From positions 72,165 through 120,399 of the IMG/VR virus record IMGVR_UViG_3300028805_000076: a DNA stretch of 48,235 bases; one strand, given 5' to 3'. This document shows, one piece after another, positions 9,118 through 38,877 of this stretch (positions are counted from its first letter, which is position 1; the number at the start of each line of letters is the position of its first letter). Below the pieces are notes generated by a model, which was not told where the DNA came from, searched no databases, and worked only from the letters and a program-made list of their open reading frames with translations. This DNA is from a virus. Its lineage: Duplodnaviria > Heunggongvirae > Uroviricota > Caudoviricetes. The translations under genes and the position numbers were made by a program.

Positions 9118-10422
9118 TTATTGTTTTAAAATATCTATTATATCATTTACATTATGAAAACATTTATCACCTAAAAAAGTGTCTTGTTTTTCTTTTGTGA
9201 AATATAAAAGTTGAATATTGTTGTCTTTACAAAATTGTTGTTTTATAATATCATTTTTATGTTGCGAATCAAATCCTTGTTTACCGCCCAAACCATTGAT
9301 AATTTCAAAATGGAATTTTCCTTGACATTCTATTGCAATATTTTTTTGAGGAATAAAAAAATCAAGTTTTAAAGGTAGAACATTTTTTAAACCATTTATA
9401 ACATGCTGAGTTTTATATTCAATTTTATTTTCTTCTAGCGTTAATCTCATTTCTCGTTCTAATTTACTTTCTGAACATGTGGGACATCCGCAACCATTTA
9501 AATGAAGATAATATGATTGATTAAAATTCCCGTGGATAGGACACTTTATATTAATTTTATAATTGCTATTATAAATTGTGCTTTCGATATTATTAACATC
9601 ATAAATATATTTATTGCCGTGAATTTTATTAAATCTTTCAATTAATTCGTTTGTTGTTGGCTTAACTTTTTTATTACATTTTGGGCAACCATTTCCACAT
9701 TGTATTTTTGATGGTGCTGCCATCCATTTATAACCACAAATTAAGCACTTAAACATAATTTTTTCACCCATTGATTTATAATCGTCAATAATTTCTAAAT
9801 GTCTATTTTTAAGATTTGAATCTACTATAAATTCATTCACTTTTTTTTTATGTTTTTCACGAGCACAAAATGGACAACCCTTTTGCAATACTATGTGTTC
9901 ATGAGGTGTTTTTGTAAAAATTCCGTGTTCTTTACAAATAATTTGAATTTTATCATTTGGTGAAGAGTCTTTAACTAAACTATAATCATATAAATCACCA
10001 AATATTTTAACTGCTTCTGAAATTATCATATTTTTTGTTCTAAAATTATCAGAACATTTTGGACAACCTTGCTTTTGATTAATGTGCGAATAGGCAATTT
10101 TTTCAAAATCGCCATGTTTTTTACAAGTAATTATTACTTTATCTGTAGAATTATTACATATACTTTTATCATATGTAAAATTATCACCAAAAATTTCTTT
10201 AGACCATTTTATAAAATTTTTGGTTGTAAATTTTTTATTTTTAGTCCTAATTTTACCATTATAAACATCTTGCGGTAACGCTTCAATATATTCATTTGTA
10301 TATGTATCAAATAAAATAACTTTAGTTCGATTGTTTATGTATATTGTTTTATCGAAAGTAAATCTATCACCATATTTTTCAACACAACGTTTTTCAAATG
10401 TTTCTTGCGTGGTTTTTCTCAT
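9118..10422 (-). CDS. Free-standing putative homing endonuclease (Zn-ribbon-like repeats plus Vsr/DUF559-like nuclease)
   Basis: Four Cys-rich repeats (C..HG.F...H...GCP.C type) and C-terminal LKLDFFIPQKNIAIECQGKFH...DIIKQQFC; same repeat type as 3921-5213. Confidence 0.75.
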   Translation of the reverse strand: MRKTTQETFEKRCVEKYGDRFTFDKTIYINNRTKVILFDTYTNEYIEALPQDVYNGKIRTKNKKFTTKNFIKWSKEIFGDNFTYDKSICNNSTDKVIITCKKHGDFEKIAYSHINQKQGCPKCSDNFRTKNMIISEAVKIFGDLYDYSLVKDSSPNDKIQIICKEHGIFTKTPHEHIVLQKGCPFCAREKHKKKVNEFIVDSNLKNRHLEIIDDYKSMGEKIMFKCLICGYKWMAAPSKIQCGNGCPKCNKKVKPTTNELIERFNKIHGNKYIYDVNNIESTIYNSNYKINIKCPIHGNFNQSYYLHLNGCGCPTCSESKLEREMRLTLEENKIEYKTQHVINGLKNVLPLKLDFFIPQKNIAIECQGKFHFEIINGLGGKQGFDSQHKNDIIKQQFCKDNNIQLLYFTKEKQDTFLGDKCFHNVNDIIDILKQ

Positions 10423-35094: not shown

Positions 35095-38000
35095 TTATTT
35101 TTTCTCATTATCCAAAAATTCGTCAAGAGATGAAATCATATTGTTGAATTCCTCGTTAATTAACAATGTTTTGTCAAGAATATCTGGTCTTGAAACAATT
35201 GTTCTGTTTCTTTGTGAATCATTTCTTCTATTTCTCTCTATTTTTTCAATCAACAGAGGTTTGTTCTTGCTTACTGCTTCCATTGGGGGTGGGTTTCCTT
35301 CTGGTGGCGTACTACCTTCATCTCCACCTAACACATTGGAAGCATCAGCAGCTGGCATTTCACCACTTTCTCCACCGATTTCACCCATTCCATCATCATT
35401 TGGTGAACCTAACTCGTCAAGACCATTGCCGAAGTCACCTCCACCGCCTCCCATAGGTGGCATACCTCCACCACCCATGCCTTGCATATCACCTTCACCG
35501 CCTTGGTTCTGATTCTCTTGATATTGAGCACCAGGCTCTCCATAGATTCTATCAACATTATCAAATATACCAGTACGCTTGATGATTTGGTTGGTCATTT
35601 GGAGTTCGTTGGCAATCGCCTTCTCCAATCTTATCTCTTCAAAGTTGTCTTGAATCTCCTTGTCACTCCATTTCATAACTTGCTTCAAAGCTCTTTGCAA
35701 TGACATAATAGGAATACCAGTTCCAGGGTCTGCCACTGCTGTTTGAACAGCACCAATTTTCTTTGAAACATTCTCAATTTCAAGTTGTTCTGCTTGAGTT
35801 GAAGGATTGTTCATTGAAAGTGAGAAATTTGTCAAGTCATCATCGAATCCCAACAAATACAAGTGTATACTTGCGACTTTTGTCAATTCCATAAGGAATG
35901 CTTGCTGTATTCTATTGATAGTTCTTGTAAATCTCACGTCTTCCAAAGCAAGATTTTGACCATTTCCTTGAGATTCATCGAAATTAAGGAAAGTCCTTGG
36001 TATTCTTAAAGCTGTAAGAACCTTGTTTTGAACAAACTTGATGTCATCCAACGCTGTCAAGTTCTGTGCTGCTGAAAGTGTCTCGATTGGTGTAGGTGCG
36101 GATGGGTCTCTAACTGGTATAAAGATGTCTTGGTCACATGAATTACTTACGAATATACCGTTTTGACAAATAGAACCATTTGAATTCCAAGTTCTTAATG
36201 CAAAATTGTGCCTATCATCTTCGCCATTTAAACCAACAACTGTCATACAATAAACATCATCGCCACTAACCCACTCTATATTTTTAATAGTATGGTTTTT
36301 TAAAGATTCTGTGATATATGCTGATATTGTAGCAAAACCTTTTTCTTTGATTCTGTTTTCCAAAACTTCTCTTGAAATGAAATGATTATGCTCTAATCTT
36401 CTATTATCATTTATTGAAATTAGATAATCAATCAAATTAGTGTTAATATAATCAAGCATTTCTTTGCGTTTTGTGATTCTATGGGCTAATACTTCATTCA
36501 ATATTGAGTTCCATATGAAATCATCAAAATGAATATTCATTTTGTGAATTCTATTAGCACTACCTTCACCAATCCAACTGTTTTTGCTCGCAATTCTTCT
36601 TATTGCATCATGTTGTTTATGCAATTCTGAATTGTTATATTCTTCAAAATCTTTCCTATATCCAATTTCTAATCCTTTTTCTCTTCTTAACTGTTTTGTT
36701 GTTTCTAATTTATTATATTCGATGATACGTTTTTTATTAATTTCTTTAGTATAATCTAATTCACCATTAGCATATTTAATTTTTAAAGTATTCGAAATAT
36801 TTTGCTTATGTATTGGTGATATTATTCTCCCTTTTAATGATTTTTTTAAGTTTTCAATATGTTTTTGTCTTTTTTCTTCATTTTTCCAATTTCTTCTTGC
36901 TAATTCAGAATGCATTTTATGGTGTTCAAAATAGTCGCACCATAATAAATTAGATGGTTCGTTATTGTATTTGTTAAAATCTTTATGGTGAATTGTATTA
37001 TATTCAGCATTTTCTTTCTCAACATTTTCACCAATTAAACGATGTGTAAATTCAAATTTGCCGCTATTTGGATTATATATTTGTTCATACCTATCAAATA
37101 ATTTTTGACTATTTTTGTCAATTTTTCTATAAAACGGCATAACACTTTCACCAATTGCGACTTCATCTGCTCGTTTTTTTGAGCCATCACGCATAATCAA
37201 TGGATGCTCTTGTGCCATAATGCAATAAGAGTCATCATCAAATGTTATTTTAACAAGTTTGTCTGCTGTATAGTTTTTACCACACCACGCAACTTTTCCT
37301 GGTACAATTCTATGTGTCTTGTCTTGAATTGAATAGACATAATTTGTTTTACCACTGTTGAATTCTTTTGCCAATTCTTCAATGGTAATCGTTCTACCAT
37401 CCAATAATGGTATTGGTGTGTCTTTATGAACTGGCATGATGTTTTTCCTCAAGTCTATCTGACCAGTCATAGGGTCGATGATAGGTGTTCTCTTGAAGTT
37501 GTTTGCAATTTGCTGAACATAAGCTTGAACATCAGCATCATCAATTGCACCAACGTAAATCTTGTAGATTCTTCGTTCTATTGAACGTTCAAGACGATAA
37601 ATGAGCATCATATCCTCCATAAGAGACAGCATTCTCCAATGCCTTCTTGCTGCATTAAGATAAGAACAGTTATGCGTCACAATACCGTTAGCAAAGAAAT
37701 TACTGTTTTCGTTATCTACTGTAAAATCATATGTTTGTTTCTTGCCTACATATTCTATTTTACTTATCTTTTCTGTCTTAAAGCCATCTGCTAATCTATT
37801 GGATAAATCATATTTTTTTTCTTGTTTGTTATAAGAGTTATCAACAATTAGTAAATCACCGATTTTGAGGTCTTTTATTTCTTTATAAACTAAATTATTA
37901 TCTTCATAAATCAGTAATTTATGGTCTTCAGTTCCTTCTATTTCATTGTGAAATGTTGAAACTTTATATACATCTTTTTCACCTTTAGGCATAAACATAG

Positions 38001-38877
38001 TGACAGTACCTAATTCTCTCATATGAGAATTAATATTAAATGTCCACACTTTATCACCAATGTCTATGTTGGACATTTCCTTATACCCAAATTCGGTTTC
38101 AATTCTTGTATCTCCAACTATGCAACCATAAGGAAGATATAGAGAGTTTGTAATCAATCTGAAGTGAGCAATCTGCCAATTTCTGAAAGGTATCTGTTCA
38201 CTTGTTTCATCTGTCCATATGAATTTAGTGGATAGGTCTGTGTTTTTGTCAATGTTTTGAGCAAGTCTGTATCCTTGTCCACCATAAGGATTTTCAATAC
38301 CATTTTCTAATCGTTCGACATTAAATACTGGAAGTTGTCTCCATCCTAGCACACCATTTTTATGGTCAAGGTTTAGCATCATAAACATATTTCCGTACTT
38401 GCACATTCCTCTGACAATCATTTGTGCAGTTACTTGAATGTCAAGTCTGTTCACGAACAAATCTTCCAATATGGCTCTGATTCTATCAGATTTTGAAGTT
38501 ACATTGATAACTTGACCCTTGTCATTGTTGATACAACTTTCTTCAGAAACTATATCCAATGCAGCACCGATTTCTGGAAATGAATCCATAAGGTCTGCAT
38601 CCCTATACATTAATTTGACGTTGTTAAGACCAGCAAAAGCTTGAACTGACAAGTCCACATTAGCCTTAACCCATCTGTCATTCAGCCACGAATTCTGTTG
38701 CAATTCCAACTTCTGTTTTTCGTAGTCTTGCTTGTCTGTTGTTTTGTATAAAATCTTTTCACCTTCGGCTGTTGATATGTCATAACTGTTGACGTGTCTT
38801 TGGTTTACATCGTCACCCCAATCACCAGTTATAGCTTTATCCAAGCCTTGAAAAACTGTATTTAAAATTTTAGCCAT
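35095..38877 (-). CDS. Portal protein (T4 gp20-like) precursor with two inteins; spliced length 677 aa
   Basis: FPEIGAALD, YGNMF, IAHFRL, PYG|CSYL..ARR.WR.L.LMEDMMLIYRLER..ERRIYKI.VG, NIM|SCDQDIFIPVR, IETL..AQNL..LDDI; acidic Gly/Pro/Met-rich tail. Confidence 0.95.
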   Translation of the reverse strand: MAKILNTVFQGLDKAITGDWGDDVNQRHVNSYDISTAEGEKILYKTTDKQDYEKQKLELQQNSWLNDRWVKANVDLSVQAFAGLNNVKLMYRDADLMDSFPEIGAALDIVSEESCINNDKGQVINVTSKSDRIRAILEDLFVNRLDIQVTAQMIVRGMCKYGNMFMMLNLDHKNGVLGWRQLPVFNVERLENGIENPYGGQGYRLAQNIDKNTDLSTKFIWTDETSEQIPFRNWQIAHFRLITNSLYLPYGCIVGDTRIETEFGYKEMSNIDIGDKVWTFNINSHMRELGTVTMFMPKGEKDVYKVSTFHNEIEGTEDHKLLIYEDNNLVYKEIKDLKIGDLLIVDNSYNKQEKKYDLSNRLADGFKTEKISKIEYVGKKQTYDFTVDNENSNFFANGIVTHNCSYLNAARRHWRMLSLMEDMMLIYRLERSIERRIYKIYVGAIDDADVQAYVQQIANNFKRTPIIDPMTGQIDLRKNIMPVHKDTPIPLLDGRTITIEELAKEFNSGKTNYVYSIQDKTHRIVPGKVAWCGKNYTADKLVKITFDDDSYCIMAQEHPLIMRDGSKKRADEVAIGESVMPFYRKIDKNSQKLFDRYEQIYNPNSGKFEFTHRLIGENVEKENAEYNTIHHKDFNKYNNEPSNLLWCDYFEHHKMHSELARRNWKNEEKRQKHIENLKKSLKGRIISPIHKQNISNTLKIKYANGELDYTKEINKKRIIEYNKLETTKQLRREKGLEIGYRKDFEEYNNSELHKQHDAIRRIASKNSWIGEGSANRIHKMNIHFDDFIWNSILNEVLAHRITKRKEMLDYINTNLIDYLISINDNRRLEHNHFISREVLENRIKEKGFATISAYITESLKNHTIKNIEWVSGDDVYCMTVVGLNGEDDRHNFALRTWNSNGSICQNGIFVSNSCDQDIFIPVRDPSAPTPIETLSAAQNLTALDDIKFVQNKVLTALRIPRTFLNFDESQGNGQNLALEDVRFTRTINRIQQAFLMELTKVASIHLYLLGFDDDLTNFSLSMNNPSTQAEQLEIENVSKKIGAVQTAVADPGTGIPIMSLQRALKQVMKWSDKEIQDNFEEIRLEKAIANELQMTNQIIKRTGIFDNVDRIYGEPGAQYQENQNQGGEGDMQGMGGGGMPPMGGGGGDFGNGLDELGSPNDDGMGEIGGESGEMPAADASNVLGGDEGSTPPEGNPPPMEAVSKNKPLLIEKIERNRRNDSQRNRTIVSRPDILDKTLLINEEFNNMISSLDEFLDNEKK
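36142..37434 (-). mobile_element. Portal intein 2 (431 aa) with HNH endonuclease; Pro1, block-F Cys, Ser-Asn end, Ser+1
   Basis: NIM|PVHKDTPIPLLDG; block B MAQEHPL; HNH FTHRL...TIHHKDFNKYNNEPSNL...EHHKMH; block F DVYCMTV...HNFAL; NGIFVSN|SCDQ. Confidence 0.88.
37669..38124 (-). mobile_element. Portal intein 1, canonical mini-intein (152 aa; Cys1, His-Asn, Cys+1)
   Basis: PYG|CIVGDTRIET; block B IEGTEDHKL; block F TYDFTV; NGIVTHN|CSYL; no endonuclease. Confidence 0.93.

What the first reader, a model, noticed from the sequence alone, without database searches (positions are those of the whole stretch)
36142..37434. Portal intein starting with Pro and carrying a block-F Cys but lacking the rest of the class 3 WCT signature
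Seen: the extein junction NIM|S aligns with T4 gp20 NMSMTED, so residue 1 is Pro (CCA at 37434-37432) and there is no N-terminal nucleophile. Block F reads VYCMTV (Cys at F4), block B has H-P-L (Leu at B12, not Trp), and block G ends FVSN|S (Val at G5, Ser penultimate). It contains an HNH endonuclease. Established: class 3 inteins (for example mycobacteriophage Bethlehem DnaB, Pro1) use F4 Cys with a Trp-Cys-Thr triplet, while class 2 KlbA inteins use direct +1 attack and end Ser-Asn. Inference: a mechanistically atypical or intermediate intein that must splice because portal is essential.
Basis: partly seen in the sequence, partly recalled or inferred. Interest (0 to 1): 0.75.

Follow-up and report, generated by a model that had tools for sequence, protein, structure and literature searches.

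The report
Pro-start portal intein, internal-Cys type
The portal gene of this sheep-gut jumbo phage carries a self-splicing intein that begins with proline and almost certainly uses an internal cysteine to start splicing. It belongs to a large family that appears to have arisen from ordinary cysteine-start inteins, separately from the textbook "class 3" inteins.

Summary
Window 36142-37434 (minus strand) encodes a 431-aa intein in a T4-type portal protein. It has Pro at position 1, block B A-Q-E-H-P-L (B12 Leu), block F VYCMTV (F4 Cys), an HNH endonuclease insert, and the end V-S-N|S.

Four lines fix the junction:
- alignment to T4 gp20;
- empty and occupied copies of three portal sites in relatives;
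- a pLDDT-90 model that overlays mini-inteins residue 1 to last;
- contigs from an independent study that keep the CCA codon.

It is not a one-off. Among the 150 best of 3095 database matches, 128 related inteins start with Pro, and all 83 with a mapped C-terminus have Cys at F4. Their usual triplet is Phe-Cys-Val, not Trp-Cys-Thr, and none has the penultimate His. A 2020 survey already counted seven "FCV" inteins as class 3 variants, so the type is catalogued but apparently uncharacterised.

What seems new is its ancestry. The Pro1 clade is monophyletic and nested inside Cys1 (class 1) HNH inteins. Its nearest sisters carry both Cys1 and F4 Cys at the same portal site. The class 3 prototype falls elsewhere.

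The most likely mechanism is class 3-type: F4 Cys attacks first, using a Cys-His dyad.

The parts
35095..38877 (-). Portal protein precursor gene (1260 aa, T4 gp20 type). It holds two inteins.
   Evidence: Pfam Portal_T4 E=6.7e-79. PDB T4 gp20 chains E about 4e-15.
36142..37434 (-). The intein in question: 431 aa, portal residues 482-912, inserted at site B (KNIM|...|SCDQDIF).
37432..37434 (-). CCA codon for Pro1, the first intein residue. It has no nucleophilic side chain.
   Evidence: Sequence. Invariant in 82 aligned inteins. 128 Pro-start N-termini in relatives. Unchanged in the independent contigs X3 and X4.
37105..37434 (-). N-terminal splicing region (intein aa 1-110), with block A (PVHKDTPIPLLDGR) and block B.
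   Evidence: Strands in the model. Aligns to class 1 inteins Pab PolII, NrdJ-1 and DnaE.
37282..37287 (-). Trp50-Cys51, a pair specific to the Pro1 clade. Cys51 occurs in 91% of Pro1 inteins against 3% of Cys1 relatives. It aligns with the W-H of the DnaE intein motif WHDRG.
   Evidence: alignment. Its role is inferred only.
37198..37215 (-). Block B core A74-Q-E-H77-P-L79: B7 Ala (not Thr), B10 His (invariant), B12 Leu (not Trp).
   Evidence: hhalign places EHPL over SHGW of the MP-Be intein. Clade statistics.
36904..36993 (-). HNH homing-endonuclease motif (IHHKDFNKYNNEPSNLLWCDYFEHHKMH), followed by a helical domain up to about intein aa 380.
   Evidence: The family profile hits I-HmuI (1u3e) at E=3.3e-4. 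Pfam HNH_3 is below its cut-off. The model is helical over residues 173-383.
36142..36297 (-). C-terminal splicing region (intein aa about 380-431), with blocks F and G.
   Evidence: Strands at model residues 387-435.
36247..36249 (-). TGT codon for Cys396 (block F position 4), the proposed first nucleophile.
   Evidence: Invariant. Present in 83 of 83 Pro1 inteins, against 17 of 123 Cys1 relatives.
36208..36210 (-). His409 (block F position 13, in RHNF). It probably assists Asn cyclisation in place of the missing penultimate His.
   Evidence: Invariant in the clade. The role is inferred.
36139..36150 (-). Block G end Val429-Ser430-Asn431, followed by the Ser+1 codon of the C-extein.
   Evidence: Asn is invariant; G5 is Val, Leu or Ile in 96%; G6 is never His.
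37669..38121 (-). First portal intein: a 151-aa class 1 mini-intein (Cys1 ... THN|C). It gives context and served as an outgroup.
   Evidence: Pfam Intein_splicing E=6.5e-25; sequence.

Best explanation
This is a functional, mobile, HNH-bearing intein in the portal gene of a jumbo phage from sheep gut.

Proposed mechanism (inferred, not shown):
1. Residue 1 is Pro, so it cannot make the usual N-terminal (thio)ester. Cys396 (block F position 4), activated by the invariant block B His77, attacks the Met(-1)-Pro1 peptide bond and forms an internal thioester branch.
2. Ser+1 takes the N-extein over from that branch.
3. Asn431 cyclises, helped by block F His409 rather than a penultimate His.
4. An O-to-N shift yields ...KNIM-SCDQD..., restoring the conserved portal motif.

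This is the class 3 reaction order, run by a Cys-His dyad without the Trp (B12) and Thr (G5) of the WCT signature.

The intein belongs to a large monophyletic Pro1/F4-Cys clade with consensus triplet Phe-Cys-Val. That clade arose inside a family of class 1 (Cys1, F4 Asp, His-Asn) HNH inteins of the same portal proteins, through forms that carry both Cys1 and F4 Cys. It therefore probably arose independently of the canonical WCT class 3 inteins.
For: Junction and Pro1:
- T4 gp20 alignment.
- Empty and occupied copies of three portal sites.
- Structural overlay of Pro...Asn on residue 1...last of mini-inteins.
- CCA kept, with synonymous flanking changes, in contigs of an independent study.

Functional constraint:
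- P1, H77, C396, H409 and N431 are invariant in 82 inteins, and this copy carries all 8 invariant and 30 near-invariant residues.
- The AF2 model has pLDDT 90 and a full HINT fold.

Covariation:
- Pro1 goes with F4 Cys in 83 of 83 cases. Cys1 relatives have F4 Asp 82, Thr 19, Cys 17, Asn 4, Ser 1.
- Pro1 also goes with loss of B7 Thr (Ala 83% against Thr 95%) and of the penultimate His (0 of 83 against 80 of 123).
- The prototype class 3 intein likewise does not need B7 (PMC2807308).

Ancestry:
- hhalign of the clade profile against the class 1 HNH intein of Bacillus phage SP-15 gives E=7e-34 over 355 columns.
- The N-terminal splicing region alone hits 129 Cys1 inteins at a median E of 5e-16, but the MP-Be class 3 prototype only at E=0.085.
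- A PDB profile search finds class 1 inteins and no class 3 chain at E<=1.
- VIA Z is 20-21 for class 1 inteins against 16-17 for class 3 structures.
- Three trees give one Pro/Cys change, a Pro1 clade with SH-aLRT 97-98, nearest sisters that are all Cys1+F4-Cys, and MP-Be elsewhere.
Against: - No biochemical data exist. Neither the block F thioester nor splicing itself was observed.
- Two of the three residues that define class 3 (Trp B12, Thr G5) are missing. Trp B12 mutants of tested class 3 inteins splice poorly or not at all (PMC5222942).
- Grafting WCT onto a class 1 intein failed (PMC7664689), so F4 Cys alone does not guarantee the mechanism.
- I could not read model coordinates, so the distance from Cys396 to the scissile bond is unmeasured.
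- The trees rest on 100-200 columns, some inner nodes are weak, and the polarity depends on the rooting (midpoint, or the window's own class 1 mini-intein).
- Only the best 150 of 3095 matches were examined.
- Canonical class 3 inteins could still be fast-evolving descendants of this clade.
Confidence: 0.78

Rival explanations
1. Class 2 (KlbA-like) route: Ser+1 attacks the Met(-1)-Pro1 amide directly. F4 Cys would then be only structural or regulatory.
For: There is no N-terminal nucleophile and two thirds of the WCT triplet are absent. Tori and Perler note that inteins with the class 3 signature could in principle use either route (PMC5222942).
Against: F4 Cys is invariant in all 83 Pro1 inteins but present in only 17 of 123 Cys1 relatives. 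B7 Thr, which class 1 and 2 inteins use to activate the N-junction (PMC2807308), is Ala here. The +1 residue here is Ser, a weak nucleophile for direct attack on an amide. KlbA is one of the weaker structural matches (Z 15.6).
Confidence: 0.08
2. Class 3-type splicing is retained, but the clade-specific Cys51 next to the active site pairs with Cys396 (disulfide or metal site). Splicing, and so portal maturation, would then be conditional on redox state.
For: Cys51 occurs in 91% of Pro1 inteins against 3% of Cys1 relatives. It aligns with the His of the DnaE-intein WHDRG loop. From memory, unverified, that His lies beside F4 Asp and the +1 residue in the Ssp DnaE structure. A class 3 intein acting as an oxidative-stress sensor is on record (PMC6195587, listed).
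Against: 11 of 129 Pro1 inteins have Ala or Val at position 51, so the residue is not essential. No coordinates or distances were available. The rumen is anoxic.
Confidence: 0.1
3. The element is a decayed, non-splicing insertion, so the portal is a pseudogene or tolerates the insert; or Pro1 is an assembly error or the junction is misplaced.
For: None beyond the unusual residue 1. The genome record is a fragment (CheckV completeness 32%).
Against: The frame is open for 1260 aa. All catalytic positions are intact and invariant across the family. The insert splits a motif conserved from T4 to these phages. CCA is present in the source contig and in contigs of another study. 128 relatives also start with Pro.
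Confidence: 0.03

Closest known systems
Canonical class 3 inteins (WCT type), e.g. mycobacteriophage Bethlehem 'DnaB' (really TerL) intein, Msm DnaBi1, Mch DnaB1
   Same: Non-nucleophilic residue 1 (Pro in MP-Be as well), Cys at block F position 4 that co-varies with it, His at B10, terminal Asn, Ser or Thr at +1, and a phage setting. The reaction order is presumably the same.
   Different: B12 is Leu (clade consensus Phe), not Trp. G5 is Val, not Thr, so the Cys-His-Thr triad described for Mch DnaB1 is reduced to a dyad. The penultimate residue is Ser, not His. The endonuclease is HNH, whereas 82.5% of class 3 inteins carry LAGLIDADG. 36% of the clade has Cys at +1. There is no specific sequence affinity and the structural match is lower (Z 16-17 against 20-21).
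'FCV' triplet variants counted among class 3 inteins in Hoffmann et al. 2020, Table S1 (7 of 1702)
   Same: The same operational definition and the same consensus triplet as this clade. This is very probably the same family.
   Different: They are only tallied in a supplementary table. I found no description of host protein, endonuclease, ancestry or activity. This copy reads LCV.
AceL NrdHF split class 3 intein (MCT triplet; PDB 6ZGQ)
   Same: A proven class 3 mechanism despite lacking Trp B12, the penultimate His and the block F His. It shows that the signature can be relaxed.
   Different: It keeps Thr G5, is naturally split, has no endonuclease and is unrelated in sequence (11% identity, Z 17.2).
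Class 1 HNH inteins of phages, e.g. Bacillus phage SP-15 gp22 intein and the Cys1 inteins in the same portal proteins
   Same: Homologous end to end: N-splicing region, HNH domain, helical domain and blocks F and G (E=7e-34). They use the same portal insertion site B.
   Different: They have Cys1, Thr at B7, mostly Asp at F4 and mostly His-Asn at the end, which is the standard class 1 chemistry.
Class 2 KlbA inteins
   Same: No N-terminal nucleophile.
   Different: KlbA inteins have Ala1, no F4 Cys, standard block B residues and Cys at +1. They are archaeal, and the structural match is weaker (Z 15.6).

Membership tests
Intein (HINT splicing domain) | Blocks A, B, F and G, a HINT fold, a terminal Asn, and a Ser/Thr/Cys at +1, inserted in frame in a conserved host motif | tested here: met
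   Sequence. Model pLDDT 90. Z up to 21.0 against solved inteins over 147 residues at rmsd 1.8. The insertion splits the NM|S motif of gp20.
Class 3 inteins (Tori et al. 2010 signature) | No Cys/Ser/Thr at intein position 1 | tested here: met
   Pro1 (CCA, 37434-37432). The junction is fixed.
Class 3 inteins (Tori et al. 2010 signature) | Cys at block F position 4, co-varying with the non-nucleophilic residue 1 | tested here: met
   Cys396. 83 of 83 Pro1 inteins have F4 Cys, against 17 of 123 Cys1 relatives.
Class 3 inteins (Tori et al. 2010 signature) | Trp at block B position 12 | tested here: not met
   Leu79. In the clade: Phe 73%, Val 10%, Tyr 5%, Ile 5%, Trp 5%. Column equivalence with Trp67 of MP-Be is shown by hhalign.
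Class 3 inteins (Tori et al. 2010 signature) | Thr at block G position 5 | tested here: not met
   Val429. The clade has Val, Leu or Ile in 96% and Thr in 1 of 83.
Class 3 inteins (Tori et al. 2010 signature) | [quoted passage not shown] | tested here: met
   Ser+1 here. In the clade: Ser 47%, Cys 36%, Thr 17%.
Class 3 inteins (mechanistic definition) | Obligate F4 Cys and a block F thioester branched intermediate | not testable with these tools
   This needs expression, mutagenesis and detection of the intermediate.
Class 3 inteins (common descent with WCT inteins) | Groups with WCT class 3 inteins in sequence or structure comparison | tested here: inconclusive
   The nearest relatives are class 1 HNH inteins. 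MP-Be falls away from the clade. No class 3 chain appears in the PDB profile search at E<=1. Class 3 structures do match, at lower Z. Only one WCT sequence was tested, on a long branch.
Class 3 inteins (operational rule of Hoffmann et al. 2020) | No Cys at the N-end and Cys at motif C2:4 | tested here: met
   Pro1 and Cys396. The rule is quoted.
Class 2 (KlbA-type) inteins | Lacks both the N-terminal nucleophile and the block F Cys/WCT triplet, and uses the standard B7 Thr and B10 His | tested here: not met
   F4 Cys is present and invariant. B7 is Ala. Definition from PMC2807308.
Class 1 inteins | Cys, Ser or Thr at position 1 | tested here: not met
   Residue 1 is Pro, although the whole domain is homologous to class 1 HNH inteins.
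HNH homing endonuclease | His-Asn-His(Asn) beta-beta-alpha metal motif | tested here: met
   The motif HHKDFNKYNN...NL...HHKMH is present. The family profile matches I-HmuI at E=3.3e-4 and aligns with the SP-15 HNH intein. Pfam HNH_3 scores only 16.3 bits, below its cut-off of 24.8. Activity was not tested.

The most novel reading that the evidence does not exclude
The Pro1/F4-Cys 'FCV' clade is a second, independent origin of block-F-cysteine (class 3-type) protein splicing. It evolved stepwise from class 1 HNH inteins at one portal site. The inferred order is: F4 Asp to Cys or Thr, with gain of Trp50; then Cys1 to Pro, B7 Thr to Ala, loss of the penultimate His and gain of Cys51. It works with a bare Cys-His dyad. 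[quoted passage not shown] 2020), and living dual-nucleophile intermediates are available to test.
Probability: 0.5. Interest if true: 0.7.

Novelty: new variant of a known kind. Interest (0 to 1): 0.55.

Why it matters
Class 3 inteins are defined by the Trp-Cys-Thr triplet. On the basis of a failed class 1 to class 3 engineering attempt, they have been argued to have an origin separate from class 1 inteins.

This intein and its roughly 130 sampled relatives show that phages maintain a block-F-Cys, Pro1 design without the Trp, the Thr and the penultimate His. That design sits phylogenetically inside class 1 inteins, next to forms that carry both nucleophiles.

This gives intein biochemists three things:
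- a natural series for working out which residues are really needed for the internal-cysteine route;
- a way to test how one splicing chemistry converts into another;
- candidate new scaffolds (with an HNH insert, and mini versions of 170-230 aa) for protein engineering.

For phage biology, it shows jumbo-phage portal genes that carry up to four related inteins at a few hot-spot sites.

Tried and rejected
- Megablast of the portal gene against GenBank phages gave no match.
- tblastn of the intein against phages gave only 8 weak partial matches, all with Cys1 at position 1 where I looked: SP-15 and CL131.
- hhalign of the clade profile against single sequences is insensitive. MP-Be (E=0.07) and the window's own class 1 mini-intein (E=0.027) score alike, so that pair of numbers cannot separate the classes. 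I relied on the family-internal trees, the phmmer scores and the PDB profile search instead.
- Tori and Perler 2011 (PMC3133030) is not held.
- Literature searches found no description of this family: 'FCV' with intein, HNH with class 3, and gp20 with intein.
- Searches to verify my recollection that His48 of the Ssp DnaE intein lies next to F4 Asp140 found nothing. That point remains a recollection.
- Model coordinates are not exposed, so no active-site distances were measured.
- Bethlehem gp52 and gp62 were checked for the prototype intein. It actually lies in gp11, the terminase.
- Contig joints that skip the intein region (36050 to 37487, 36073 to 37441) have short sides and unknown letters between them. 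They are not counted as evidence for intein-free alleles.
- Parts of the stretch without cover in X3, X4 and X5 are not interpreted.
Full report
**What is there.** The minus-strand ORF 35095-38877 encodes a 1260-aa protein. It is a T4 gp20-type portal: Pfam Portal_T4 gives E=6.7e-79, and T4 portal chains 3JA7 and 6UZC match at E about 4e-15. Two inserts interrupt it.
- The first, aa 253-403 (window 37669-38121), is an ordinary class 1 mini-intein (Cys1 ... THN|C; Pfam Intein_splicing E=6.5e-25).
- The second, aa 482-912, is the stretch in the finding (36142-37434).

The second insert reads P-V-H-K-D-T-P-I-P-L-L-D-G-R at its start, a block A with Pro where Cys normally stands. Block B is A74-Q-E-H77-P-L79. 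An HNH motif lies at aa 148-177, followed by a long helical region. Block F is V-Y-C396-M-T-V ...

**Is the junction right?** Four independent lines say yes.
- The HMMER alignment to T4 gp20 pairs M481 with T4 M259 and S913 with T4 S260, with no T4 residue lost or doubled.
- Among database relatives, the same portal site occurs both empty (DLRYNPL-SVDEDYFI, 13 cases) and occupied (DLRYNPL|P...N|SVDEDYFI). The same holds for two other portal sites: RSWVRNL|CKYGD and TLPGGQF|TGDIED. At all three sites the inserted piece starts with Pro and ends with Asn.
- An AlphaFold2 model built on 82 family members (mean pLDDT 90) overlays solved mini-inteins so that model residue 6 (Pro1) matches chain residue 1 and model residue 436 (Asn431) matches the last residue.
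- The source-sample contig is identical. Contigs from a different study (X3 and X4, about 96% identical) keep the CCA codon. The two nearest differences, at 37429 and 37438, are synonymous.

So Pro1 is not a sequencing error and the junction is not shifted.

**It is one of many.** A full HMMER scan of 1.84 billion representative proteins gave 3095 matches at E<=1e-3. In the best 150, mostly multi-intein portal proteins, I mapped 128 N-termini that start with Pro and 129 that start with Cys.
- Of the Pro-start inteins with a mapped C-terminus, 83 of 83 have Cys at F4. The Cys-start relatives have Asp 82, Thr 19, Cys 17, Asn 4 and Ser 1.
- In an alignment of 82 Pro-start inteins, the invariant residues are Pro1, His B10, Cys F4, His F13, the terminal Asn and three structural residues. 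The window's copy carries all invariant and near-invariant residues.
- The clade's profile is: B7 Ala (83%), B12 Phe (73%; Trp only 5%), G5 Val, Leu or Ile (96%; Thr in 1 of 83), G6 Lys, Ser, Ala or Gly and never His, and +1 Ser 47%, Cys 36%, Thr 17%.
- Mini versions of 170-320 aa that lack the HNH domain also exist, as expected for mobile inteins.

The window's L-C-V triplet is therefore a minor variant of a family-wide F-C-V triplet.

**What is already known.**
- Class 3 inteins were defined by a non-nucleophilic residue 1 that co-varies with Trp B12, Cys F4 and Thr G5, plus Ser or Thr at +1. The prototype MP-Be intein also starts with Pro (PMC2807308).
- Later work showed that Thr G5 mutants can be nearly normal, whereas Trp B12 mutants are impaired (PMC5222942).
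- The AceL NrdHF split intein uses the class 3 route with Met at B12 and without either assisting His (PMC7891396).
- That paper's survey of 1701 'no N-terminal Cys plus F4 Cys' inteins lists, in Table S1, WCT 1685 and 'FCV' 7.

So the FCV type has been counted, but I found no description of it.

**Ancestry.** The clade is homologous end to end to class 1 HNH inteins.
- hhalign of the clade profile against the Cys1/F4-Asp/His-Asn intein of Bacillus phage SP-15 gives E=7e-34 over 355 columns.
- The N-terminal splicing region alone (aa 1-110, no endonuclease) matches the 129 Cys1 inteins at a median E of 5e-16. It matches the MP-Be prototype only at E=0.085, in a four-sequence database.
- A profile search of PDB sequences finds class 1 inteins (Pab PolII, NrdJ-1, DnaE) and I-HmuI, but no class 3 chain at E<=1.
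- Structurally, the best matches are class 1 (NrdJ-1 Z 21.0, Ssp DnaB 20.8, Mtu RecA 20.0). Class 3 structures score Z 17.2 (AceL), 16.6 (Msm DnaBi1) and 16.1 (Mch DnaB1), and KlbA scores 15.6.

None of the three trees used block F or residue 1.
- FastTree on 251 sequences (aa 2-200) needs only one Pro/Cys change.
- IQ-TREE on 108 sequences gives a Pro1 clade with SH-aLRT 98. It is nested about 15 nodes deep among Cys1 inteins, and its two nearest sister groups (2 and 6 sequences) are all Cys1 plus F4 Cys.
- IQ-TREE on the N-splicing region only (aa 2-109), rooted on the window's own class 1 mini-intein, gives the same picture (support 97, 81 and 79). It places MP-Be far away, among F4-Asp inteins.

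Deep branches are all F4 Asp. The sister Cys1+F4-Cys inteins sit at the same portal site B as the window's intein. Within the Pro1 clade, site B is the inferred ancestral site, with about four moves to sites A and C.

Other changes that accompany Pro1 are B7 Thr to Ala, loss of the penultimate His, and gain of Cys51 next to Trp50 (91% against 3%). Trp50 is already present in the F4 Cys and Thr sister groups.

**How it most likely works.**
- Shown: the sequence, the junction, the fold, the conservation, the covariation and the phylogenetic position.
- Inferred: the chemistry.

With Pro at position 1, no N-S or N-O shift is possible at the junction. The only nucleophile that tracks Pro1 perfectly is Cys F4, and it sits with the invariant B10 His. 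I therefore propose the class 3 order of events:
1. Cys396 attacks the Met(-1)-Pro1 bond and forms a thioester branch.
2. Ser+1 takes over the N-extein.
3. Asn431 cyclises, with F13 His409 standing in for the absent penultimate His.
4. An O-N shift completes the peptide bond.

The loss of B7 Thr fits the prototype's independence from B7. The third member of the Cys-His-Thr triad described for Mch DnaB1 is Val here, so the clade would work with a dyad.

The invariant Pro may matter through the geometry or lability of the X-Pro bond. This is an inference, and Tori et al. raise the same thought.

Cys51 aligns with the His of the DnaE-intein WHDRG loop. From memory, that His neighbours F4 and +1 in the Ssp DnaE structure, but I could not verify this. 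A redox or metal role is possible but not required, since 9% of the clade lacks Cys51.

**Rivals.**
- A class 2-type direct attack by Ser+1 is unlikely, given the invariance of F4 Cys and the Ala at B7.
- A dead insert or an assembly error is contradicted by the open frame, the intact catalytic set, the family-wide conservation and the independent contigs.

**Context.** The window lies in a 120-kb IMG/VR virus record judged 32% complete, which suggests a genome of roughly 350-400 kb. The source is a sheep gut metagenome, and related sequences occur in bovine and other gut runs. The neighbourhood holds a terminase, a DNA polymerase, a helicase and a Lon-like protease.

**Verdict.** The reading as a 'lone atypical or intermediate' intein is only partly right. 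It is a regular member of a large, catalogued but uncharacterised Phe-Cys-Val branch of internal-cysteine inteins. The added value is the evidence that this branch grew out of class 1 HNH inteins through dual-cysteine forms. This bears on the published view that class 3 inteins are unlikely to evolve from class 1 (PMC7664689). All mechanistic statements await a splicing assay.

Noticed in passing
window 37669-38121 (-): The same portal gene holds a second intein: a 151-aa class 1 mini-intein (Cys1, T-H-N|C) inserted after LPYG. One gene therefore carries two different splicing chemistries.
   Followed up: partly
P0109:735-1147, P0059:671-947, P0091:640-1055 (database relatives): Cys1 inteins at the very same portal site B have Asn at F4 and end in Gln instead of Asn (...SFQ|SVDEDY). 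In one tree they were the immediate sisters of the Pro1 clade.
   Followed up: partly
e.g. P0014:1105-1500, P0009:1076-1468, P0087:669-1096, P0077:582-959: Seventeen relatives carry both Cys1 and Cys at F4 (TGCITV or TWCISV). Some lack the penultimate His. They are the nearest sisters of the Pro1 clade and may be dual-nucleophile intermediates.
   Followed up: partly
window 36690-37025: In contigs of an independent study (runs X3, X4 and X5) a closely related phage has these 334 nt, the HNH core of the intein, replaced by 145 other letters. The net change is -189 nt, which keeps the frame. Both splicing ends are kept.
   Followed up: no
window 36050-37487: Short contigs in X3 and X5 join extein sequence across the intein (skips of 1436 and 1367 nt, with short sides). 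They may be intein-free portal alleles of related phages, but the evidence is too weak to count.
   Followed up: no
window about 35340-35560 (-), portal aa about 1107-1180: The portal C-terminal region has a Gly/Met/Pro-rich low-complexity tract (GGEGDMQGMGGGGMPPMGGGGGDFGNG...) that T4 gp20 lacks.
   Followed up: no
P0005 (2818 aa), P0010 (2930 aa), P0073 (2039 aa): Related portal proteins carry up to four inteins of this HNH family each, as Pro1 and Cys1 types mixed. The portal is an intein hot spot in these phages.
   Followed up: partly
L002:2096-3763 (Aphanizomenon phage CL131 dCTP deaminase): This protein holds an HNH intein with Cys1, Cys at F4 (TYCLTA) and the end K-N|C. It is another dual-Cys form, in an unrelated host protein.
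   Followed up: no
L005:7680-8702 (Mycobacterium phage Bethlehem gp11): The prototype 'MP-Be DnaB' class 3 intein lies in the 903-aa gp11 (terminase large subunit), not in a DnaB gene. Kelley et al. 2016 agree. Gp52 of the same phage holds another intein with F4 Cys and the end T-G-N|S.
   Followed up: partly
window 9118-10422 (-): A free-standing HNH homing-endonuclease gene (PHROG 559, E=7e-89) lies elsewhere in the window.
   Followed up: no
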